64,000 nucleotides of DNA from Octopus sinensis (taxonomy: Eukaryota), in NCBI RefSeq assembly GCF_006345805.1, contig NC_043003.1, forward strand, positions 68,882,001 to 68,946,000, read 5' to 3'. Every line of letters starts with the position of its first letter. The stretch's first letter is position 1. Position numbers and translations under genes: made by a program. This document shows, in pieces, positions 1,675 through 40,894 of the stretch. The notes under the pieces are model-generated. The model was not told the origin of the DNA, did not search any database, and saw only the letters and a list, made by a program, of their open reading frames with translations.

Positions 1675-1722
<48 letters not shown>

Positions 1723-1923
1723 ATGTATATATATATATATATATATGTGTGTGTATATACATATATATATATGTATTTATTTATTTATTTATTTATTCAT
1801 ATATATATATATATATATATAAGCAATATCCAACAGACATTTTATGCATGTATGTTCTTTTGTTCTCAGGTCGACTCCGATTCGAATCATTTGAGAGGAG
1901 CGACGAGACAACTCACGAAAGGA

Positions 1924-1970
1924 ACGATAGGCATCGATGTTCCGTCATTTTTGTGACTTATCAATATCAC
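1924..1970 (-). ncRNA. Type I hammerhead ribozyme motif, U3-A8 core intact, GAAA and GUC mutated
   Basis: Reverse complement reads gtgata|TTGATAA|gtca-caaaaa-tgac|GGAA|catcgatg|CC|tatcgt. Confidence 0.65.
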
Positions 1971-2140
1971 ACACTCGAACTGAGCCCAAGGGAAAGTCAT
2001 GTCCTTCGCTCATAAACGGGACGCAAGGTGAGTTGTCTCACCCGTCCATGATTGACCTTCATGTGTTTTAACAGCTGATGCTTTGTGAGTCATCTCCAAT
2101 GCGTCCGTCGAAAAGCAGCTATGGGTTCGGTTCGGGTACA

Positions 2141-2185
2141 TGATGTTAATAAGTCACACAAATGACGAAACATCGATGTCCATCA
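2141..2185 (+). ncRNA. Type I hammerhead ribozyme motif, U3-A8 variant, G5 mutated
   Basis: tgatg|TTAATAA|gtca-cacaaa-tgac|GAAA|catcgatg|TC|catca: stems I and II and palindromic stem III pair perfectly. Confidence 0.7.
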
Positions 2186-2270
2186 CTCCTGAATGAGGCG
2201 TAAGGAGAGTTGTCTCACCTGTTCACGACTGGTGTTTAACTGGTGTTTAACAGCCAGCGTTTTGAGGAAG

Positions 2271-2752
2271 TCAAATTAGCTGCCCAGCAGATGTTAACAT
2301 AAAGCTGAAAAGGAGAACACCTATGATGAACTATTGCAAAATCTACAGTTAATCTACCCAGATTACAAGTCCAGGTTTATACCTGCAACTATTGGGGCCC
2401 TGGGATATGTAACACACTGCCTAAATACCAATTTTGTGAAACTGGGCCTCTCAGGACCAGAAAAGAGAAAGAAGACTACAGATCCAATCCATCACTGAAC
2501 TGTAAAAGTCTGTAAAACTTTCCAGAAGTTTATCATTTAAATATATATGAGCCTGTCTAGATATGTAGCTATATGCATGAGAATACATACATATAGCATA
2601 CAAATCTTCACATACATACGTACACACAAACAAAAGTACCCAATTGCTGATGTTGAAATTTCAATGGAGGAGCCTTGGATCTAGATTAGAAACCAGTTCT
2701 TTCTCTATTGGCAAGAAATCTTGAAATAAAACTGAACAATGACATACATACA
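2271..2752 (+). mobile_element. Dong/R4-clade LINE 3' end (restriction-like endonuclease C-terminus and 3' UTR)
   Basis: Translates CPADVNIK...YDELLQNLQLIYPDYK..FIPATIGALGYV...VKVCKTFQKFII*. The 3' UTR ends aataaaactgaacaatga-(CATA)n. Confidence 0.75.
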
Positions 2753-2753
2753 T

Positions 2754-3180
2754 AATGAGCTATTCACAGTAACATCGATCATGAAAGCAGTTTATCATGG
2801 CCGAATAGCCGGATTACTACCTCCCACTTTGAAGGGTATGCGTTTGAAATCCAGGAACAGGAAATATTAACCAAGTACCTGATTCACACAAGGGATAGAG
2901 ATGCAGGAAAAGCAGTAGAAAATGACAACCGATGCAGGCTTTGTGGAGTTCACACTGAAGATATCACCCACATCACAAGCAGTTGTCAGAAAATATATGT
3001 GAGCAGGTCAGGATATATAACTATATGCATGAGAATACATATATAAAACATACAAATCTGCACACATACGTACATACATACAAAAATACCCTGTCGTTAA
3101 AGTTGAAATTCCAATGAAAGAGCCTTGGACCTAGGTTAGAAACCAGTTCTTGAAATTACCTAAATAACGACATACATACA
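2754..3180 (+). mobile_element. Dong/R4-clade LINE fragment, internally deleted
   Basis: TSHFEGYAFEIQEQEI...CRLCGVHTEDITHITSSC (CCHC knuckle) joined directly to the same 3' UTR and (CATA)n. Confidence 0.8.
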
Positions 3181-15414: not shown

Positions 15415-16695
15415 TTGGGTTGTCCATAAAGTACGTGCCGATTTATAATAGCTTACCTATCGACTTATTTTAGAATTTGGTTGAGTCCATAAAATAGAAT
15501 TTGACTACACCTCCATTTAGAGCACAGTTTAAGCTATTTTTTCGTGGAAGAAGGTTTATGTTCCTATAACCTGTGTTTATTCTGTATCCCTTTAAAATGG
15601 AAGATAAGAAAGTTCATTTTCGGCACTTGATGCTTTTCTTTTTCCGTAAAGGGAAAAATGCCTCACAAGCAACCAAAGAAATATTCGCAGTTTAAGGTGA
15701 TGTTTCTTTATCCGAAAGAACTGTACGGAAGTGGTTTGCAAGGTTCCGAGCTAGAGATTGTAGCCTTATTGATAAAGAACGATCAGGCAGTCCATCCGCT
15801 ACAGATGATGACCAAATCAAGTCATTAATTGAGAATAACCCATATTACACAACCCGAGAATTGGCAGAAAGCCTTAACCTATCAAAATCCGTCGTTCATG
15901 AGCACCTGGTAAAGCTTGGGTACACAAATCGCTACAATGTTTGGGTACCACATGAGTTGAGTGAGAAGAACGTTTTGGATCGCATTTCCATCTGTGATTC
16001 GCTTTATAAACGGAATGAAAACGCACCTTTTATAAAGCAAAGTGTGACAGGTGATGAGAAATGGATTATCTACCGAAATGTTCAGTGAAAGCGATCCTGG
16101 AGTAAGCAACATGAGCCACACTTAGCCACCCCAAAAGCGGGTCTGAACCCTAAAAAGTCTTGCTTTGTGTCTGGTGGGATAAGAAAGGAATTATGTACTA
16201 TGAGCTTCTTCCTAGTAACCAGACAATTAATTCTGAGAAATACTGCACACAACTGGACGAGTTAAAAGCAGCAATTCAAGAGAAACGTCCAGAATTGGCC
16301 AACAGGAAGGGTGTTGTTTTCTAACATGATAGTGCAAGACCGCACGTTTCTTTGGGAACCAGACAAAAATTGTTGCAGCTCGGCTGGGATGTGTTGCCTC
16401 CCTCCAAATTCACCAGATATTGCTCCTTCGGATTTCCACTTGTTCAGGTCTCTGCAAAATAGTCTTAATGGTAAAAGTTTCAATTCCTTGGATGACGTAA
16501 AAAATTACCTTGATGAATTCTTTGACATGACACTACCTCAATTCTGCGAAGAGGGTATTTTCAAGTTAAAGGAAAGATGGAGATGCATTGTGCAACAAAA
16601 TGGTTCTTATTTGGTTGATTGAAAATGTAATGGCAAGTATTTATTGACCTTTTTCTTTCCTTTAAAAATCGGCATGAACTTTCCGGACAACCCAA
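15415..16695 (+). mobile_element. Full-length mariner transposon (mellifera-subfamily-like), inactive
   Basis: TA|ttgggttgtccataaagtacgtgccgattt ... aaatcggcatgaactttccggacaacccaa|TA; 1281 bp. Confidence 0.95.
15597..16622 (+). pseudogene. Mariner DD34D transposase with stops and frameshifts
   Basis: MEDKKVHFRHLMLFFFRKGKNASQA; WVPHEL; VTGDEKW; HDSARPH; [22 protein letters not shown]. Confidence 0.95.
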
Positions 16696-18524: not shown

Positions 18525-19916
18525 CATATGTGTGCGTGTGTGCATGTGGGTGCTTGCTCGCGTGTGTGTTAGTGTGCGTGTATGTGTCAGTATTATTTGT
18601 GAAAAATACTTTTTCCGTGTAGCGTGCTAACTTAGAAAATTCTTACTTGAAATAAGCAGTAAGCTCTAAAATCTATTATGGATGTGTTCTTAAATATAAT
18701 GAAAAAAGACGCTTGTTAAATTATTTATGAAAGGAATGGTTTCTGTACAAATTTGAATTTTCCCTGTCACAAACATTTTTCTTCTCGAGGAGCTTCGAAT
18801 TGAAAATATGGCTGTTGATTTAATCATATAGTTTTCTTCCATGTTTTAGCCTTCAATATTTATTTCTGTTCGAAATATTGCATCAACATTTGATTTTTTT
18901 AAAGTAAGAAGTAATTGAGAATATGAAATTCTTCCAACCGGAATATGTCTCTCGTGAAATATTTTTGTCAAAACAATATTTTATTCAAGATATGTATTAT
19001 TCGTTCATTCTACATGACAGTTAAAACTGATGAGATGGTCTCAAAACGATTTGGACCGAGTTATGCAGTTCTGGATATCCCAAAAAAAAAACGGAATCTG
19101 GTGTATTTTACCATCTTTTTAATATCAGTATGTTGAATCCCGTATAATACATCAAGCAATGGAATATTGTGGAATTCTCAGCAAATACCGAATCAATAAC
19201 TACTTTTTCATTCCCACTAATGAAACTACAAAAGGTAAAAAAAGATGGACCTGCAAAAGGTCGGCAAATCACACGAAAGTATACAATACAAACGGATATT
19301 TGGCTTATACAGATTTGAATAGATTTAGCGTAGTTTTGTTTATTGTTCACATGCTTTGAACGTTATTGTTCTGCTCCTCACATATGCACATTTTCCTCCT
19401 TATCCAATAATTTCCCTCATATTATTTGTGCGTGTTGTTCTCCTTACACCTACTCAGAAGAAATTGGCACGACTTCGCCGATGTAATAACCGCACAAACA
19501 CGCGTGCGCGCGCACAACTGTGTGGCGGAGGAAGGGGGAGTATGTTAGTGAGCGTGTTTATGTTTGTGAGTGTGTATGCGTGTGCTAGTGTGTATTTGTG
19601 TTTGTGCGTAATAACAGTGTTTATCAGCGTACACTAAAACATTTTTTTTTATGAATTCGCACTGCTGATATTAGCGCATATATCCGTAGGATTTATAAGG
19701 CGTCAAACACGGTAAATACAACTGATTTGTTTGCAAGTGCCTTGAGAAGGTTCAAAGCAATGAGGGCCTTGAGGTTATAATTGGTTTTAATATTAGTTTA
19801 ATAAAAGGTTGCCCGACTAAAACTAGTCACAGACAGATCCTATTTCTAACAGCTAGCATTGAAGACGTCAATACGTCACAGCATAAGCTGAAAATCAGAT
19901 TCCATCTCAAGTCTAT

Positions 19917-19948
<32 letters not shown>

Positions 19949-19972
19949 CATACATACATACATACATACATC

Positions 19973-20470
19973 ATCAAAGCAGTGTATCATGGAGCAATAA
20001 CCAGATTACTACTTGCCACTTTGAAGAGCATACGTTTGCAATCCAGGAAATATCAACCAAATACCCGATGCACAAAAGAGATAGAAATGCAGGAAAAGCA
20101 GTAAAATGTGATAACCGATGCAGACTTTGTGGAGTTAACACCGAAGATATCACCCACATCATAAACAGTTGTCCAAAAATGTCATCACGGTATCATCTAC
20201 CGATGAGACATGATGTTGTAGCTAGGGCATTTTTTGATGAAGTCTGTCGGAAGAATAACCCCGAGGACAAAGAAATAAGAAATCAGTATGGTTGAAGTTA
20301 TAGCCACACATAAAACAAAACATACAAATATGCGCATATACATACATACACACAAACAAAAATACCCTGTTGTTGATGTTGAATTTCCAAGGAAGGAGCC
20401 ATAGATCTATGTTAGGAACCGGCTCTTTCCCTATTGGCAAGAAGTCTTGAAATAAAGCTGAATAATGACA
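19973..20470 (+). mobile_element. Dong/R4-clade LINE fragment flanked by (TACA)n on both sides
   Basis: ORF 20068-20295 CRLCGVNTEDITHIINSCPKMSSRYHLPMRHDVVAR (CCHC plus RH motif); same 3' UTR as the 2271-2752 copy. Confidence 0.85.
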
Positions 20471-20481
20471 TACATACATAC

Positions 20482-23373: not shown

Positions 23374-24697
23374 GCCAACCATTAGGTTTATCTCTCGGGG
23401 GATCAAATATGCAACGGTGTGGTTGCTATTTGATACCCCCGAAGAGGCTCGCAGATTCCTGGGCCAGCTACTGGGGGGCAGGAAAATATTGTTCCTTCCC
23501 ATTTATTGTGGAAAGAAGTTGACGAGGGCTTGGGTCTGCGGTTTGTCACCCAGAATTGAGCCCACGTGGATAGGGGATTCTATCCGCCGGGGTCTTGATG
23601 GCAACAGTATGTGAACATTTTGCCTGCGGCTGATTGGGAGGGGTCAAAAGCTGTTTTGAACCTATAGACCCAATCAGCTGTAAATCGGGTATTTCCAGAT
23701 TTTTTTAAGAATGGCCGGGTCTAGGTATCCGTTGATGCTTGAGGGATGCCCCCCACCCAAGTGTCACCTGTGCCTGGAACCGGGCCATATCAAAAAGAAC
23801 TGTCCTAAGGACCAAAATAAGGTCCTGGAGCAGTTGATAAAGATACCGCTCCCTGCTCCCTCTTTGGGGGGAGAGAAGGCGGAAGTCGAGGATGTGGAAA
23901 CCTCCTCAAAAAAAGGAAGAAAACGAAAAGTGGGCAACAATGGTTCCCCATCGAAGGATCCGAGGGTTGCAGGAGGGAGGGAGGATCTGCTGGACAAAGC
24001 AGAGAAACTCCACCCTCCCGTGGCTCAAAGGAAAAAAAAACAAAAAAGAAAATTGGGATATCGACGGCGGTTTGTGACACACTGCCGGCGTGTCCCGAAG
24101 CATCTTTGTTGGGAGTTGTGCCACCAAAGATGGAACTGTACACCCGCCCCTCCATGATGCAGAGGAGGAATTTGTTGTCCTCTTCTATAAGGGAGGAACA
24201 GTGGAATGCTTTGTCAAGAAGCTTAAAGTGAAGGGCCGAAGGGAGGGGATTCTGTCCTGCACAGAGGACCCTGACTAGCTTTCGATCTGTTCAGGATAAT
24301 GGAGTCCTTCCCCGAGGCTATCTTCAGATTTATGCTACATTGGCTCGGCTTGGCGCCGGCCAGGTGTTTAGCTGAGTGAGAAGTCTGGTTGGGCAGGAAG
24401 ACTATTTCATTGATTCATAAATGGACTTGTGTAAGAGGTTTATTGCCTCAAAATGGCTTTGTATGTCGTAAATGTAAGATATCTGTTGCCTCCTTAATGT
24501 GTTTTTGTAAGAGGTTTGTTGCCTCAAATATGTATTTATAAAGAACAATGTGCTCTGGTAAACAGTAATCTGTGGGCGTTTCTGTTGCCCTCATTATTAT
24601 CATATCATCTATCAACTCATCTCAATTTCTCCTTGTCCAGCCCACAGCCTCCTTTCTTTGTAAGGCACTTGTGGTCAATTTAATGAATAGAAGACGG
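23374..24697 (+). mobile_element. Tx1/L1-type ORF1 (gag-like) element without ORF2, inserted in a family-A SINE head
   Basis: FISRGIKYATVWLLFDTPEEA...LPIYCGKK...LEGCPPPKCHLCLEPGHIKKNCP (CX2CX4HX4C). The SINE starts at 23331-23373 and resumes at ~24698. Confidence 0.75.
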
Positions 24698-25255: not shown

Positions 25256-25257
25256 AC

Positions 25258-25395
25258 ATATATATTTAAATGATAAACATCTGGAAAGTTTTACAGACTT
25301 TTACAGGGAGGGATTGGATTTGTAGTCCTCGAATTGCTTTCTCCTTTCTGGTTTTGAGAAGCCTAGTTTCTCAAGATTGTTATTTAGGCAGTGTG
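25258..25395 (-). mobile_element. Dong/R4 ORF C-terminal fragment
   Basis: Reverse complement of sequence homologous to 2410-2545. Confidence 0.7.
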
Positions 25396-26271
25396 TATGC
25401 ATGTATGCATGTACGACCTTATTTACATATTAAGTTTTATATGAACCATTGGGTTGGAATGAAATCGACACCTTATTCAATTTCCGTTGTAATTTTCTTT
25501 TCATTTTGTTTTTTGGTTTCTGAATCTTTGAATCTAGAAGATGTCTTATCCTAAAGGCCTTCTGATTAGGAATACTAACATGAACATAAACTGTAAACAT
25601 AACGTAGTCAAACGAAAATAACGTAGCCAAACGAAAATATCCTTTTTTTTGCGTTGTTTTATATGTTACCGAAAATACACTGTTATTTTTTTCTGATACA
25701 CATCGTTATCTCTATAAATTCAAGTAACTTCTCCATTTCTATATTTGACATTTTACAATGTCAAGTATACAAGTATACTTGGCATTTTACAAGTCGAAAA
25801 CAACAGCCATATTCGGTGCAGATAACACGTGACCAAACATAATTTATTTACCTCCCCTTTCAGATGTCTATATGTACAGCTTATGATACCGGATCACTAA
25901 ACTGCATTACCCACTAACCGGCTACTACCGACATTTATGTTCCGGCCAAATGAGAGGAGTTTATAATAAAAGTACTCTTTTGCTTGAGTTTTCAATCAAA
26001 ACTTATCTTCTAGCAGTTTAAGCAAACAAACAAGTTATATGGAAATTACAGGTATGACACCGACTTTCCGGACACTCTGGATCCAGAAACCTATGTAATC
26101 TGTACAAATTTAAGAATGGGAACGTGAATTCCCGTGGCCTTCCAGACTAGTTTACTGGTACCTTGCACAAACTAGAACCCTTCATAGTACAGTATTAATA
26201 AAATTGTATCATTTATACTAAAGTACAAGTACCTTTATTTCATTTAACTATTTTGGTAAATTTAATATTTG

Positions 26272-40108: not shown

Positions 40109-40894
40109 CTGGGTCATCCCATAAATAATTACTTCAAATTTTTGCCACAAGGGCAACTTGGGAGAGGTGGGATGAGTCGATTACATCAACCCCAGTGTTC
40201 AACTGGTACTTATTTTATCGAACCCGAAAGGATGAAAGGCAAAGTCGACCTCGGTGGAATTTGAACTCAGAACAAAGCGACGGTGAAATACCGCTAAGCA
40301 TTTCGTGCAGGGTGCTAACGATTCTGCCAGCTCCCCCCTTTGGTCATCCGATAAATAATGCCGGTTTTTCAAAAGTCGGAGGTGGACAAGCTAAACTATC
40401 TGCATCAACTTGCTATAGAAGCAGGTAGTATTTTTACCTCATACTTATTCTTAGTGCAAGTTTTGAAGAGTGCAGTTGGATTTAACAGTTATGTTTTCAA
40501 AGCTGTAACGGAGGTGACAAAGGAGCATATTCGGCATATTTTGTTTTATGAGTTCAATAAAGGCAACAAAGCAACGGAAAGTGCGAGGAATATTAATGTA
40601 GTATATGGGGATCGGGCAATAAGCGTAAGCCAATGTCAACAATGGTTCCAGAAATTCGGAGCTGGAAACTACAACCTGAAAGAAAAACCTCGTCCTGGAA
40701 GATCTGTAGAGCTCGACGAGACCCAGGTGGAACAAAATCCTGTTGTGACTGTTGAGGAACCAGCATAGAGGCTTCGATTTGGTCATTCAACCACTCATCG
40801 ACATCTGCGTACCATTGGAAAAGTCAACAAATTGGGTCAATGGCTTCCTCACAAACTCTCTATGCTCGGCCACATTACATATGGGATGACCCCA
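40109..40894 (+). mobile_element. Internally deleted mariner
   Basis: TIRs ctgggtcatcccataaataatg / cattacatatgggatgacccca; transposase N-terminus EVTKEHIRHILFYEFNKG...QWFQKF..RPGR..QWLPHKL, then the 3' TIR. Confidence 0.85.
40130..40339 (-). mobile_element. Family-B SINE inserted in the mariner 5' TIR
   Basis: TSD-like duplication ggtcatcccataaataat / ggtcatccgataaataat. Confidence 0.85.

What the first reader, a model, noticed from the sequence alone, without database searches (positions are those of the whole stretch)
1905..2270. 177-nt tandem and inverted unit carrying a hammerhead with the rare U3-A8 core covariant
Seen: the + copy (2141-2185) and - copy (1924-1970) share stem II gtca/tgac and palindromic stem III catcgatg. 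Both have T at core position 3 and A at position 8 (TTGATAA, TTAATAA). Stem I shows a compensatory swap (tgatg/catca versus tgata/tatcg). Each copy has different inactivating changes, so the reconstructed consensus is UUGAUAA..GAAA..GUC. The unit repeats with period 177. Known: C3-G8 is a tertiary pair and U3-A8 is a tolerated covariant that CUGANGA pattern searches miss. Inference: a small retrozyme family invisible to standard screens.
Basis: partly seen in the sequence, partly recalled or inferred. Interest (0 to 1): 0.8.

Follow-up and report, generated by a model that had tools for sequence, protein, structure and literature searches.

The report
Decayed variant-hammerhead repeat, probable octopus
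Two broken copies of a hammerhead-shaped RNA motif with an already published core variant (U3-A8) sit head to head in what is probably an octopus genome and belong to a multi-copy repeat that was likely inserted by Penelope-like retrotransposon enzymes, so this is a new example of a known kind and self-cleavage is untested.

Summary
The two hammerhead-shaped copies are real (+2141-2185, -1925-1969; 80% alike, E 4e-12). Both have U3 and A8, and each is broken at a different core base. Public contigs show a repeat family of roughly hundreds of copies that keeps GAAA, the 10-nt helix III palindrome and UC. It mostly swaps one helix II pair for another valid pair, and by one run's tally carries no common C3. 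The 177-nt period is only a 1.5-copy local duplication whose first copy lacks the core; the contigs do not show it as the family unit. The layout (inverted copy head to head with a partial tandem) is the published signature of Penelope-like element (PLE) insertions, but the ribozyme's helix layout is the canonical one of animal retrozymes. Best reading: a dead stump of a PLE-mobilised hammerhead repeat, either a PLE terminal repeat or a non-autonomous passenger. U3-A8 is known: natural examples were reported in 2011, and about 1,300 Schistosoma PLE motifs in 2014, with the same UUGAUAA core. New are only the probable cephalopod host and the pairing with canonical architecture. No PLE protein gene, target duplication, RNA or cleavage was shown.

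The parts
1898..1988 (-). Copy A: inverted copy of the repeat, equivalent to about 2122-2220, with an 11-nt deletion; its 3' end is lost or unrecognisable
   Evidence: 1822-1897 does not align to the tails of B or C (397 and 473 of 500 shuffles reach the score)
1925..1969 (-). Type I hammerhead, minus copy: U3, G5, A8 kept; A13->G and U16.1->C (predicted dead)
   Evidence: inactivation follows from established hammerhead core rules, not assayed
1990..2092 (+). Copy B: 5'-truncated direct copy, head to head with A; firm from 1999 (3' half of helix III, UC, helix I 3' strand), with a probably decayed GAAA from about 1990; no U3-A9 core
   Evidence: gapped extension (11 of 18 columns, weak)
2019..2047 (+). 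Hairpin capped by TTGT whose 5' arm also reads as a splice donor (2028); best-conserved block between B and C; decayed in C (2205) and A (1916, minus)
   Evidence: fold z -3.1, 1 of 200 shuffles, for B; not significant for C or A; 13-nt identical block; same block in the family's loose-end consensus
2093..2121 (+). 29-nt spacer between B and C; origin unknown (tail, deleted body or captured DNA)
   Evidence: depth 72 in bin 2086-2109 vs 39 for the locus alone and 292 just upstream, run X1
2122..2273 (+). Copy C: longest copy (152 nt); begins where A begins and where family alignments begin; ends at the same AGTCA as B
   Evidence: from_end values of 32 at 2154 and 37 at 2159 point to 2122 (my reading)
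2131..2193 (+). Type I hammerhead, plus copy: helix I 2141-2145/2181-2185 with possible distal extension 2131-2136/2188-2193; core 2146-2152 (U3, A8, G5->A); helix II 2153-2166; GAAA 2167-2170; 10-nt palindrome 2170-2179; predicted cut after 2180
   Evidence: self-duplex of 2167-2181 through the palindrome -14.3 kcal/mol; the lone copy's lowest-energy fold is not the hammerhead fold
2273..2754 (+). Not part of the finding: 5'-truncated 3' end of a far more abundant non-LTR retrotransposon (Dong/R4-like is my recalled label), followed by a second piece to about 3150
   Evidence: its family continues upstream of 2273 with different sequence in 132-177 contigs per run; zf-RVT at 2861-3010; 53% identity to P0002; other copies at 19936-20480 and 25257-25396
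1679..1821 (.). (TA)n microsatellite 77 nt left of the last recognisable base of copy A; context only

Best explanation
This is a decayed insertion of a multi-copy hammerhead-bearing repeat, laid out as one inverted copy head to head with one and a half direct copies, that was likely written into the genome by the enzymes of a Penelope-like retrotransposon. SHOWN: the anatomy, the family and its fold-preserving variants. INFERRED: the source RNA carried a type I hammerhead with a U3-A8 core pair that would cut after C17 only when two copies pair through the 10-nt helix III palindrome. That would trim multi-unit transcripts. PLE reverse transcriptase and endonuclease would then copy the RNA into AT-rich DNA, giving 5'-truncated direct copies with a shared 3' end plus a fold-back inverted copy. 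All three local copies have since lost core bases. Whether the source is the terminal repeat (pLTR) of an autonomous PLE or a short non-coding passenger (retrozyme-like) is open, at about even odds.
For: (1) Family: depth over 2158-2181 is 375, 375 and 458 times that of the locus's own contig in X1, X2 and X5, and 91-103 contigs per run carry one shared variant (the tool warns depth is no copy number). (2) All 5 displayed variant rows inside the hammerhead keep the fold in 4 of 4 runs: 2154C (68-76%) with 2165G (66-80%) swap a helix II pair, 2159A lies in the loop, 2166T and 2185G give G-U wobbles. No row is displayed for 2167-2184. (3) In X1 all 3 T>C places are displayed and none is 2146 (U3, plus copy) or 1959 (A8, minus copy), so C3 and G8 are under 5% among contigs laid on those places (my tally). 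(4) Layout matches 'inverted 5'-truncated copy adjacent to a partial tandem' (PMC8557442 section 6) and the 181-218-bp head-to-head pLTRs of Adineta (PMC3846280). B and C end at the same base. Two of 15 displayed joints show an inverted piece next to a direct piece in other contigs, in 3 and 2 of 4 runs. (5) U3-A8 is documented in PLE hammerheads (PMC4209133). PLEs are reported in octopus genomes (PMC13282606), and the neighbouring LINE family's best and only named protein hit is from Octopus bimaculoides, 68% identical.
Against: No PLE reverse transcriptase or GIY-YIG hit among 210 ORFs of the window, and no genome was available to link the repeat to one. No target-site duplication of 7 nt or more between the flanks tested. 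The hammerhead lacks the extra base after A9 and the long helix II typical of PLE minimal hammerheads; it has the canonical layout that PMC7229834 assigns mostly to tandem retrozymes. The cut-to-cut 177-nt stretch folds as a circle better than 148 of 150 shuffles (z -2.2). The two inversion joints rest on one contig per run with sides of 21-23 nt. The core tally is indirect: 39 of 79 variant rows were hidden, G5 (2148) and A8 on the plus copy (2151) could not be read, X2, X5 and X10 have 2, 1 and 1 hidden T>C places, and C3-G8 copies would align worse and be under-sampled. Linkage of 2154C with 2165G on one molecule is inferred from similar shares. Cleavage was not tested.
Confidence: 0.62

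Rival explanations
1. One reading: a classical tandem non-LTR retrozyme with a 177-nt monomer, transcribed as multimers, cut by dimeric hammerheads and circularised; the inversion is a secondary rearrangement.
For: Canonical type I layout; 177 nt lies within the 170-400 nt published range (PMC7229834); circular fold z -2.2; a conserved downstream hairpin.
Against: Only 1.5 units, the first without core. The spacer is not shared by other contigs. 0 of 15 displayed joints (38 in all) lead from the ribozyme's 3' side back to its 5' side. Loose ends after 2195 have a median of 155-166 nt, long enough to re-enter a ribozyme 177 nt on. A longer period (over about 200 nt) is not excluded.
Confidence: 0.15
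2. The family's main core is ordinary C3-G8; U3-A8 belongs only to the subfamily that made this insertion.
For: These copies do belong to a minority helix II subfamily (20-34% of depth). Core rows were hidden and C3-G8 copies would be under-sampled.
Against: No T>C at 2146 in X1 although the bin's depth is about 120 times single copy. No large group of loose ends before 2146-2153 among the 24 displayed rows, which clipped C3-G8 copies should give (995 rows not shown).
Confidence: 0.12
3. The motif is a chance look-alike inside an ordinary SINE-like or unclassified repeat and never cleaved.
For: No Rfam hit; neither local copy has an intact core; 4 of 30 shuffled windows give at least one descriptor hit.
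Against: Family-level variants keep the helices and spare GAAA, the palindrome and UC. All hammerhead elements occur in the right order, with a palindromic helix III as described for animal type I hammerheads.
Confidence: 0.06
4. The ribozyme is the 5' processing ribozyme of the abutting non-LTR retrotransposon.
For: The LINE fragment starts at 2273, exactly where copy C ends.
Against: The fragment starts inside the C-terminal domain; 132-177 contigs per run continue upstream of 2273 with unrelated coding sequence; peak depth is about 70 times that of the ribozyme; other copies in the window have no hammerhead.
Confidence: 0.03

Closest known systems
U3-A8 minimal hammerheads in the pLTRs of Cercyon Penelope-like elements, Schistosoma mansoni (Cervera and De la Pena 2014, PMC4209133)
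   Same: Same core covariation (about 1,300 hits, mostly single motifs). The UUGAUAA core is printed for S. mansoni(3) in supplementary file 2. Dual motifs 100-700 bp apart on opposite strands are described there. Dimer-dependent design.
   Different: Here there is no extra base between A9 and G10.1, helix II is 4 bp, helix III has a 10-nt palindrome, and helix I has a possible distal extension. No PLE ORF was linked. The host is probably a cephalopod.
Animal non-LTR retrozymes (Cervera and De la Pena 2020, PMC7229834; Li, Clavereau and Pollet 2026, 10.64898/2026.07.22.740005)
   Same: Canonical type I layout, short non-coding unit, many copies; proposed to be mobilised by or derived from PLEs.
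   Different: No array with two complete hammerheads, no fixed unit length at family level, no RNA evidence; head-to-head inversion; U3-A8 core, which the sections I read do not mention for retrozymes.
PLE insertions with inverted pLTR and tail (Arkhipova et al. 2013, PMC3846280; Craig et al. 2021, PMC8557442); Poseidon PAc of Anolis (PMC11167929)
   Same: Inverted copy head to head with a partial tandem, and similar repeat size. In PAc the ORF starts in helix II with the cut 26 nt downstream; here an ATG lies in helix II 19 nt before the predicted cut.
   Different: No ORF body between the direct copies (29 nt only), no target duplication, and the inverted copy is the longer one at the 5' side. 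PAc has C3-G8.
Natural U3-A8 hammerheads (Perreault et al. 2011, PMC3088659)
   Same: C3-G8 to U3-A8 covariation seen in several natural examples; such ribozymes are stated to be active in vitro.
   Different: The passage I read does not place them in an animal repeat family.

Membership tests
Type I hammerhead ribozyme | Three helices around a core 3-9, G12-A13-A14, A15.1-U16.1, H17 in type I order | tested here: met
   Order and helices present in both copies. Each local copy has 1-2 broken core bases. No variant row is displayed for 2167-2184 in four runs.
Type I hammerhead ribozyme | Intact core in the family consensus, including G5 and a 3-8 pair | tested here: inconclusive
   U3 (plus) and A8 (minus) supported by the X1 tally; rows for 2148 and 2151 hidden. 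G5 is seen directly only in the minus copy.
Type I hammerhead ribozyme | Self-cleavage after H17 | not testable with these tools
   Needs an assay.
PLE minimal hammerhead (min-HHR) | Extra base between A9 and G10.1, long helix II, short helix I, minimal helix III | tested here: not met
   A9 is followed directly by G10.1; helix II 4 bp; 10-nt palindrome. Less atypical PLE hammerheads with a palindromic helix III are also described.
Penelope-like element | RT plus GIY-YIG ORF next to the repeat | tested here: inconclusive
   None among 210 ORFs of at least 65 aa in the window; other loci not readable.
Penelope-like element | Partial tandem with an adjacent inverted copy, head to head | tested here: met
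   A, B, C layout; two short inversion joints in other contigs.
Penelope-like element | Target-site duplication or 30-40-nt tail (both optional) | tested here: inconclusive
   No shared word of 7 nt or more between 1830-1910 and 2255-2310; left boundary uncertain; the 29-nt spacer could be a tail but is unproven.
Penelope-like element | Retained spliceosomal intron near the pLTR or ORF start | tested here: inconclusive
   Donor-like site at 2028 and acceptor-like site at 2074/2253 are the best-conserved blocks, but the interval is only 47-49 nt and the donor block is also a hairpin.
Non-LTR retrozyme | [quoted passage not shown] | tested here: not met
   At this locus the first direct unit has no core; no tandem joint among 15 displayed of 38. 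Not met for a 177-nt unit; other loci not seen whole.
Non-LTR retrozyme | Canonical type I architecture in a short non-coding unit | tested here: met
   The loop 1-loop 2 contact itself was not tested; the likeness of the loops to canonical ones is recalled.
Non-LTR retrozyme | Linear and circular monomer RNA of 170-400 nt | not testable with these tools
   No RNA run could be examined (see Tried and rejected).

The most novel reading that the evidence does not exclude
A cephalopod family of non-coding retrozyme-like elements whose canonical type I hammerhead has fixed the U3-A8 core across hundreds of copies, and whose insertions carry the PLE head-to-head inversion signature. That would be direct structural evidence that animal retrozymes are integrated by Penelope-like enzymes, in a family that C3-G8 descriptor screens skip.
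Probability: 0.3. Interest if true: 0.5.

Novelty: new member of a known kind. Interest (0 to 1): 0.3.

Why it matters
If the core is confirmed, counts of hammerheads in molluscs made with a C3-G8 descriptor miss a whole family. If the repeat proves to be a non-coding passenger with PLE-type inverted insertions, it would test the proposed PLE-retrozyme partnership outside vertebrates, where the 2026 preprint says it did not look. This locus itself is a dead fossil in a transposon-rich stretch, and the core variant has been in print since 2011.

Tried and rejected
Whole-genome consensus: impossible, no genome is held. Rfam: 0 hits at gathering score; 3 unrelated hits at E 5.5-8.5. Collection scans for relatives: 2 viral and 3 metagenome loci with the local helix II pattern, and 6 viral loci with the majority pattern; all 11 lack the core or helix I or III context and were rejected as chance. 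0 hits in genome contigs and viral contigs with the GAAA-palindrome motif. Sequencing-run search: no RNA holder listed, which is no evidence on expression. Other copies in the window: none. Helix I 'compensatory swap' rejected as stand-alone evidence. Intron reading (ATG 2162, donor 2205/2028, acceptor 2253/2074) kept only as a weak lead: a full donor match is rare (2 in 128 kb), but the interval is 47-49 nt, the block forms a hairpin, and 14 open codons are common by chance. 1557-2012 ORF: no Pfam hit. ESM Atlas on the LINE ORF gave only unnamed or zf-RVT clusters. Earlier findings: nothing by sequence or place. Literature: 'octopus'+'hammerhead ribozyme' gave 5 papers (4 listed) and 'retrozyme'+'octopus' 3 (2 listed); none describes this family by title or abstract start. 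One search was swamped by general cephalopod papers. Two of the repeat's motifs were absent from the PMC8557442 supplement; a third 8-mer had 14 matches, of which the 2 shown lie inside unrelated sequence. The supplement of PMC7229834 and file 1 of PMC4209133 could not be read, the O. vulgaris repeat library and supplement were not read, and subscription papers are not searched, so an earlier annotation is not excluded.

Full report
VERDICT. The hammerhead anatomy is real and belongs to a multi-copy repeat family. The core variant is already known, the 177-nt tandem unit is not shown beyond this locus, and the layout points to Penelope-like element (PLE) integration. Interest 0.3; new member of a known kind.

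THE OBSERVATION. A relaxed type I descriptor run over both strands of the window returns two hits. One is at +2141-2185: core TTAATAA, helix II GTCA/TGAC, GAAA, CATCGATG, TC. The other is at -1969-1925: core TTGATAA, the same helix II, GGAA, CATCGATG, CC. They are homologous over 69 nt at 80% (E 4e-12), and 13 of 14 differences are transitions. The descriptor alone is only modestly selective: 0.17 hits per shuffled window, with 1 of 30 shuffles reaching 2. U3 and A8 are shared. The plus copy has lost G5; the minus copy has lost A13 and U16.1. By established core rules (own knowledge) both are dead. The helix I swap is a single both-sided change, which neutral decay would give with P=0.19 (256 of 500 shuffles). 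Rfam finds no hammerhead.

LAYOUT. There are three copies: A (minus, 1988 to about 1898), B (plus, 1999-2092, perhaps from 1990) and C (plus, 2122-2273). A and B are head to head. B and C are 177 nt apart, 68 of 98 columns alike, and end at the same base; B has no core. A 29-nt spacer separates B from C. The stretch 1822-1897 matches neither tail, and no target duplication was found. From 2273 lies a separate, much more abundant non-LTR retrotransposon fragment. No PLE protein domain was found among 210 ORFs; the hits were zf-RVT, Tc1/mariner-type HTH, a zinc knuckle and two weak membrane-protein hits. The best and only named hit of that LINE family is an Octopus bimaculoides protein, 68% identical, 1 of 4 hits. 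With 30-43% GC and dense microsatellites, the host is probably an octopus; this is inference.

THE FAMILY. No genome was available, so I laid contigs of 4 of the 21 listed runs on 1822-2520 at 80% likeness. The locus itself is in X1 and X2 with 0 differences and in X5 with 9 differences and 4 gaps, and 1822-1917 has no cover in X10; the best holder may be the window's own source. Depth over 2158-2181 is 375-458 times that of the locus contig in three runs. This is a rough measure, and the tool warns it is no copy number; 91-103 contigs per run share one variant. X10, under another organism code, also holds the family. Five variant rows are displayed inside the hammerhead, and all keep the fold: 2154C (68-76%) and 2165G (66-80%) turn a U-A pair of helix II into C-G; 2159A (91-94%) is in loop 2; 2166T (18-31%) and 2185G (24-25%) make G-U pairs. 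All 40 displayed rows lie at least 31 letters from an end in some run, and 39 rows are hidden. I read this as: variants at 2153-2184 would have shown, so GAAA, the palindrome and UC are fixed among laid contigs, while 2141-2152 could not show. The per-run tally partly fills the gap. X1 has 3 T>C places and all 3 are displayed elsewhere, so C3 (2146) and, on the minus copy, G8 (1959) are below 5% there. X2, X5 and X10 have 2, 1 and 1 hidden T>C places. G5 and plus-copy position 8 cannot be read, and C3-G8 copies would be under-sampled. A family-wide U3-A8 core is therefore likely but not proven.

UNIT LENGTH. The spacer is covered at 72 against 39 for the locus alone and 292 just upstream (X1). 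After 2195, 66-72 contigs per run carry loose ends of median 155-166 nt that fit nothing in the stretch. With a 177-nt period the next core would begin about 128 nt on. None of 15 displayed joints (38 in all) returns from the ribozyme's 3' side to its 5' side; the 'goes back' joints only show a single unit fitting copy B better downstream. Two displayed joints (1968 to 2124 in X1, X2 and X5; 1964 to 2163 in X1 and X2) put an inverted piece before a direct piece. Each rests on one contig per run with sides of 21-23 nt, so this is weak support for recurring head-to-head insertions. Against my reading, the 177-nt cut-to-cut stretch folds as a circle better than 148 of 150 shuffles, partly through a strong hairpin at 2019-2047.

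MECHANISM. Shown: anatomy, family and fold-preserving variants. Inferred: the lone copy prefers a non-hammerhead fold, while two copies can pair through the 10-nt palindrome (-14.3 kcal/mol). This is the dimer design described for animal type I hammerheads (PMC4209133). Dimer cleavage after C17 would trim multi-unit transcripts. PLE enzymes would copy the RNA into DNA, giving 5'-truncated direct copies with a common 3' end and an adjacent inverted copy, as described in PMC8557442 and PMC3846280. In the one PLE reconstituted in vitro, the hammerhead needed the protein to cut and was not required for insertion (PMC11167929), so the ribozyme's role remains uncertain. An ATG in helix II 19 nt before the cut, as in that element, and a donor/acceptor-like pair 47-49 nt apart are weak leads toward a pLTR. 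The canonical helix layout leans toward a retrozyme-like passenger. A 2026 preprint argues the two are one lineage.

WHAT IS KNOWN. U3-A8 was reported in nature in 2011 and stated to be active in vitro (PMC3088659). In 2014 a U3-A8 descriptor retrieved about 1,300 motifs in S. mansoni, linked to Cercyon PLEs, and the supplement prints the same UUGAUAA core (PMC4209133). Earlier notes of this scan list 25 findings with this variant in at least 19 genomes (AI notes, not evidence). I found no paper describing a cephalopod hammerhead family (limits in Tried and rejected).

WHAT I SAW OF EACH PAPER. PMC4209133: parts 1-2 of 4 of the text, passages and part 2 of 3 of supplementary file 2. 10.64898/2026.07.22.740005: parts 1-3 of 5. 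PMC7229834: abstract and sections 13, 14, 17; supplement unreadable. PMC8557442: passages, sections 6 and 11, one supplement search. PMC11167929: passages and part 1 of 2 of the main text. PMC3846280, PMC3088659, PMC7151607, PMC6155905, PMC13282606 and PMC8967140: passages only. Recalled and from no call: the label Dong/R4-like for the neighbouring LINE, the effect of G5, A13 and U16.1 changes, the likeness of loops 1 and 2 to canonical tertiary-contact loops, and the view that 47-49 nt is short for a mollusc intron.

Noticed in passing
window 2273-3150, 19726-20480, 25257-25396: Pieces of a very abundant non-LTR retrotransposon (zf-RVT followed by a C-terminal domain; Dong/R4-like by recall) ending in (ACAT)n. 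Both 2991 and about 20300 appear to join the zinc-finger region to the 3' UTR with the C-terminal domain skipped, which suggests internally deleted derivatives.
   Followed up: partly
window 1855-2033: A pyrimidine tract and CAG at 1867-1869 plus the donor-like site at 2028 would frame a 158-nt plus-strand pseudo-exon built largely from the inverted copy; no coding signal.
   Followed up: no
window 1822-1897: Single-copy stretch with a 10-nt palindrome near 1879-1888, without cover in run X10 and unrelated to the tails of copies B and C.
   Followed up: partly
window 1985-1992: A 3-bp micro-hairpin sits at the head-to-head junction; too small to exceed chance, though palindromes at such junctions are reported for PLEs.
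   Followed up: no
window 1924, 1992, 1998, 2040, 2078, 2113: Run X5 holds an allele of this locus with 9 differences and 4 gaps. At 1924, 2040 and 2078 the other letter is also common in the family, and 1998 extends copy B to the centre of the palindrome.
   Followed up: partly
window about 380-1320, 15696-16085, 40355-40765: Decayed Tc1/mariner-type transposase remnants (HTH hits for the last two; the first recognised by eye only).
   Followed up: no
window 23684-24154: ORF with a zinc knuckle (zf-CCHC, E 7e-4), probably a retroelement remnant.
   Followed up: no
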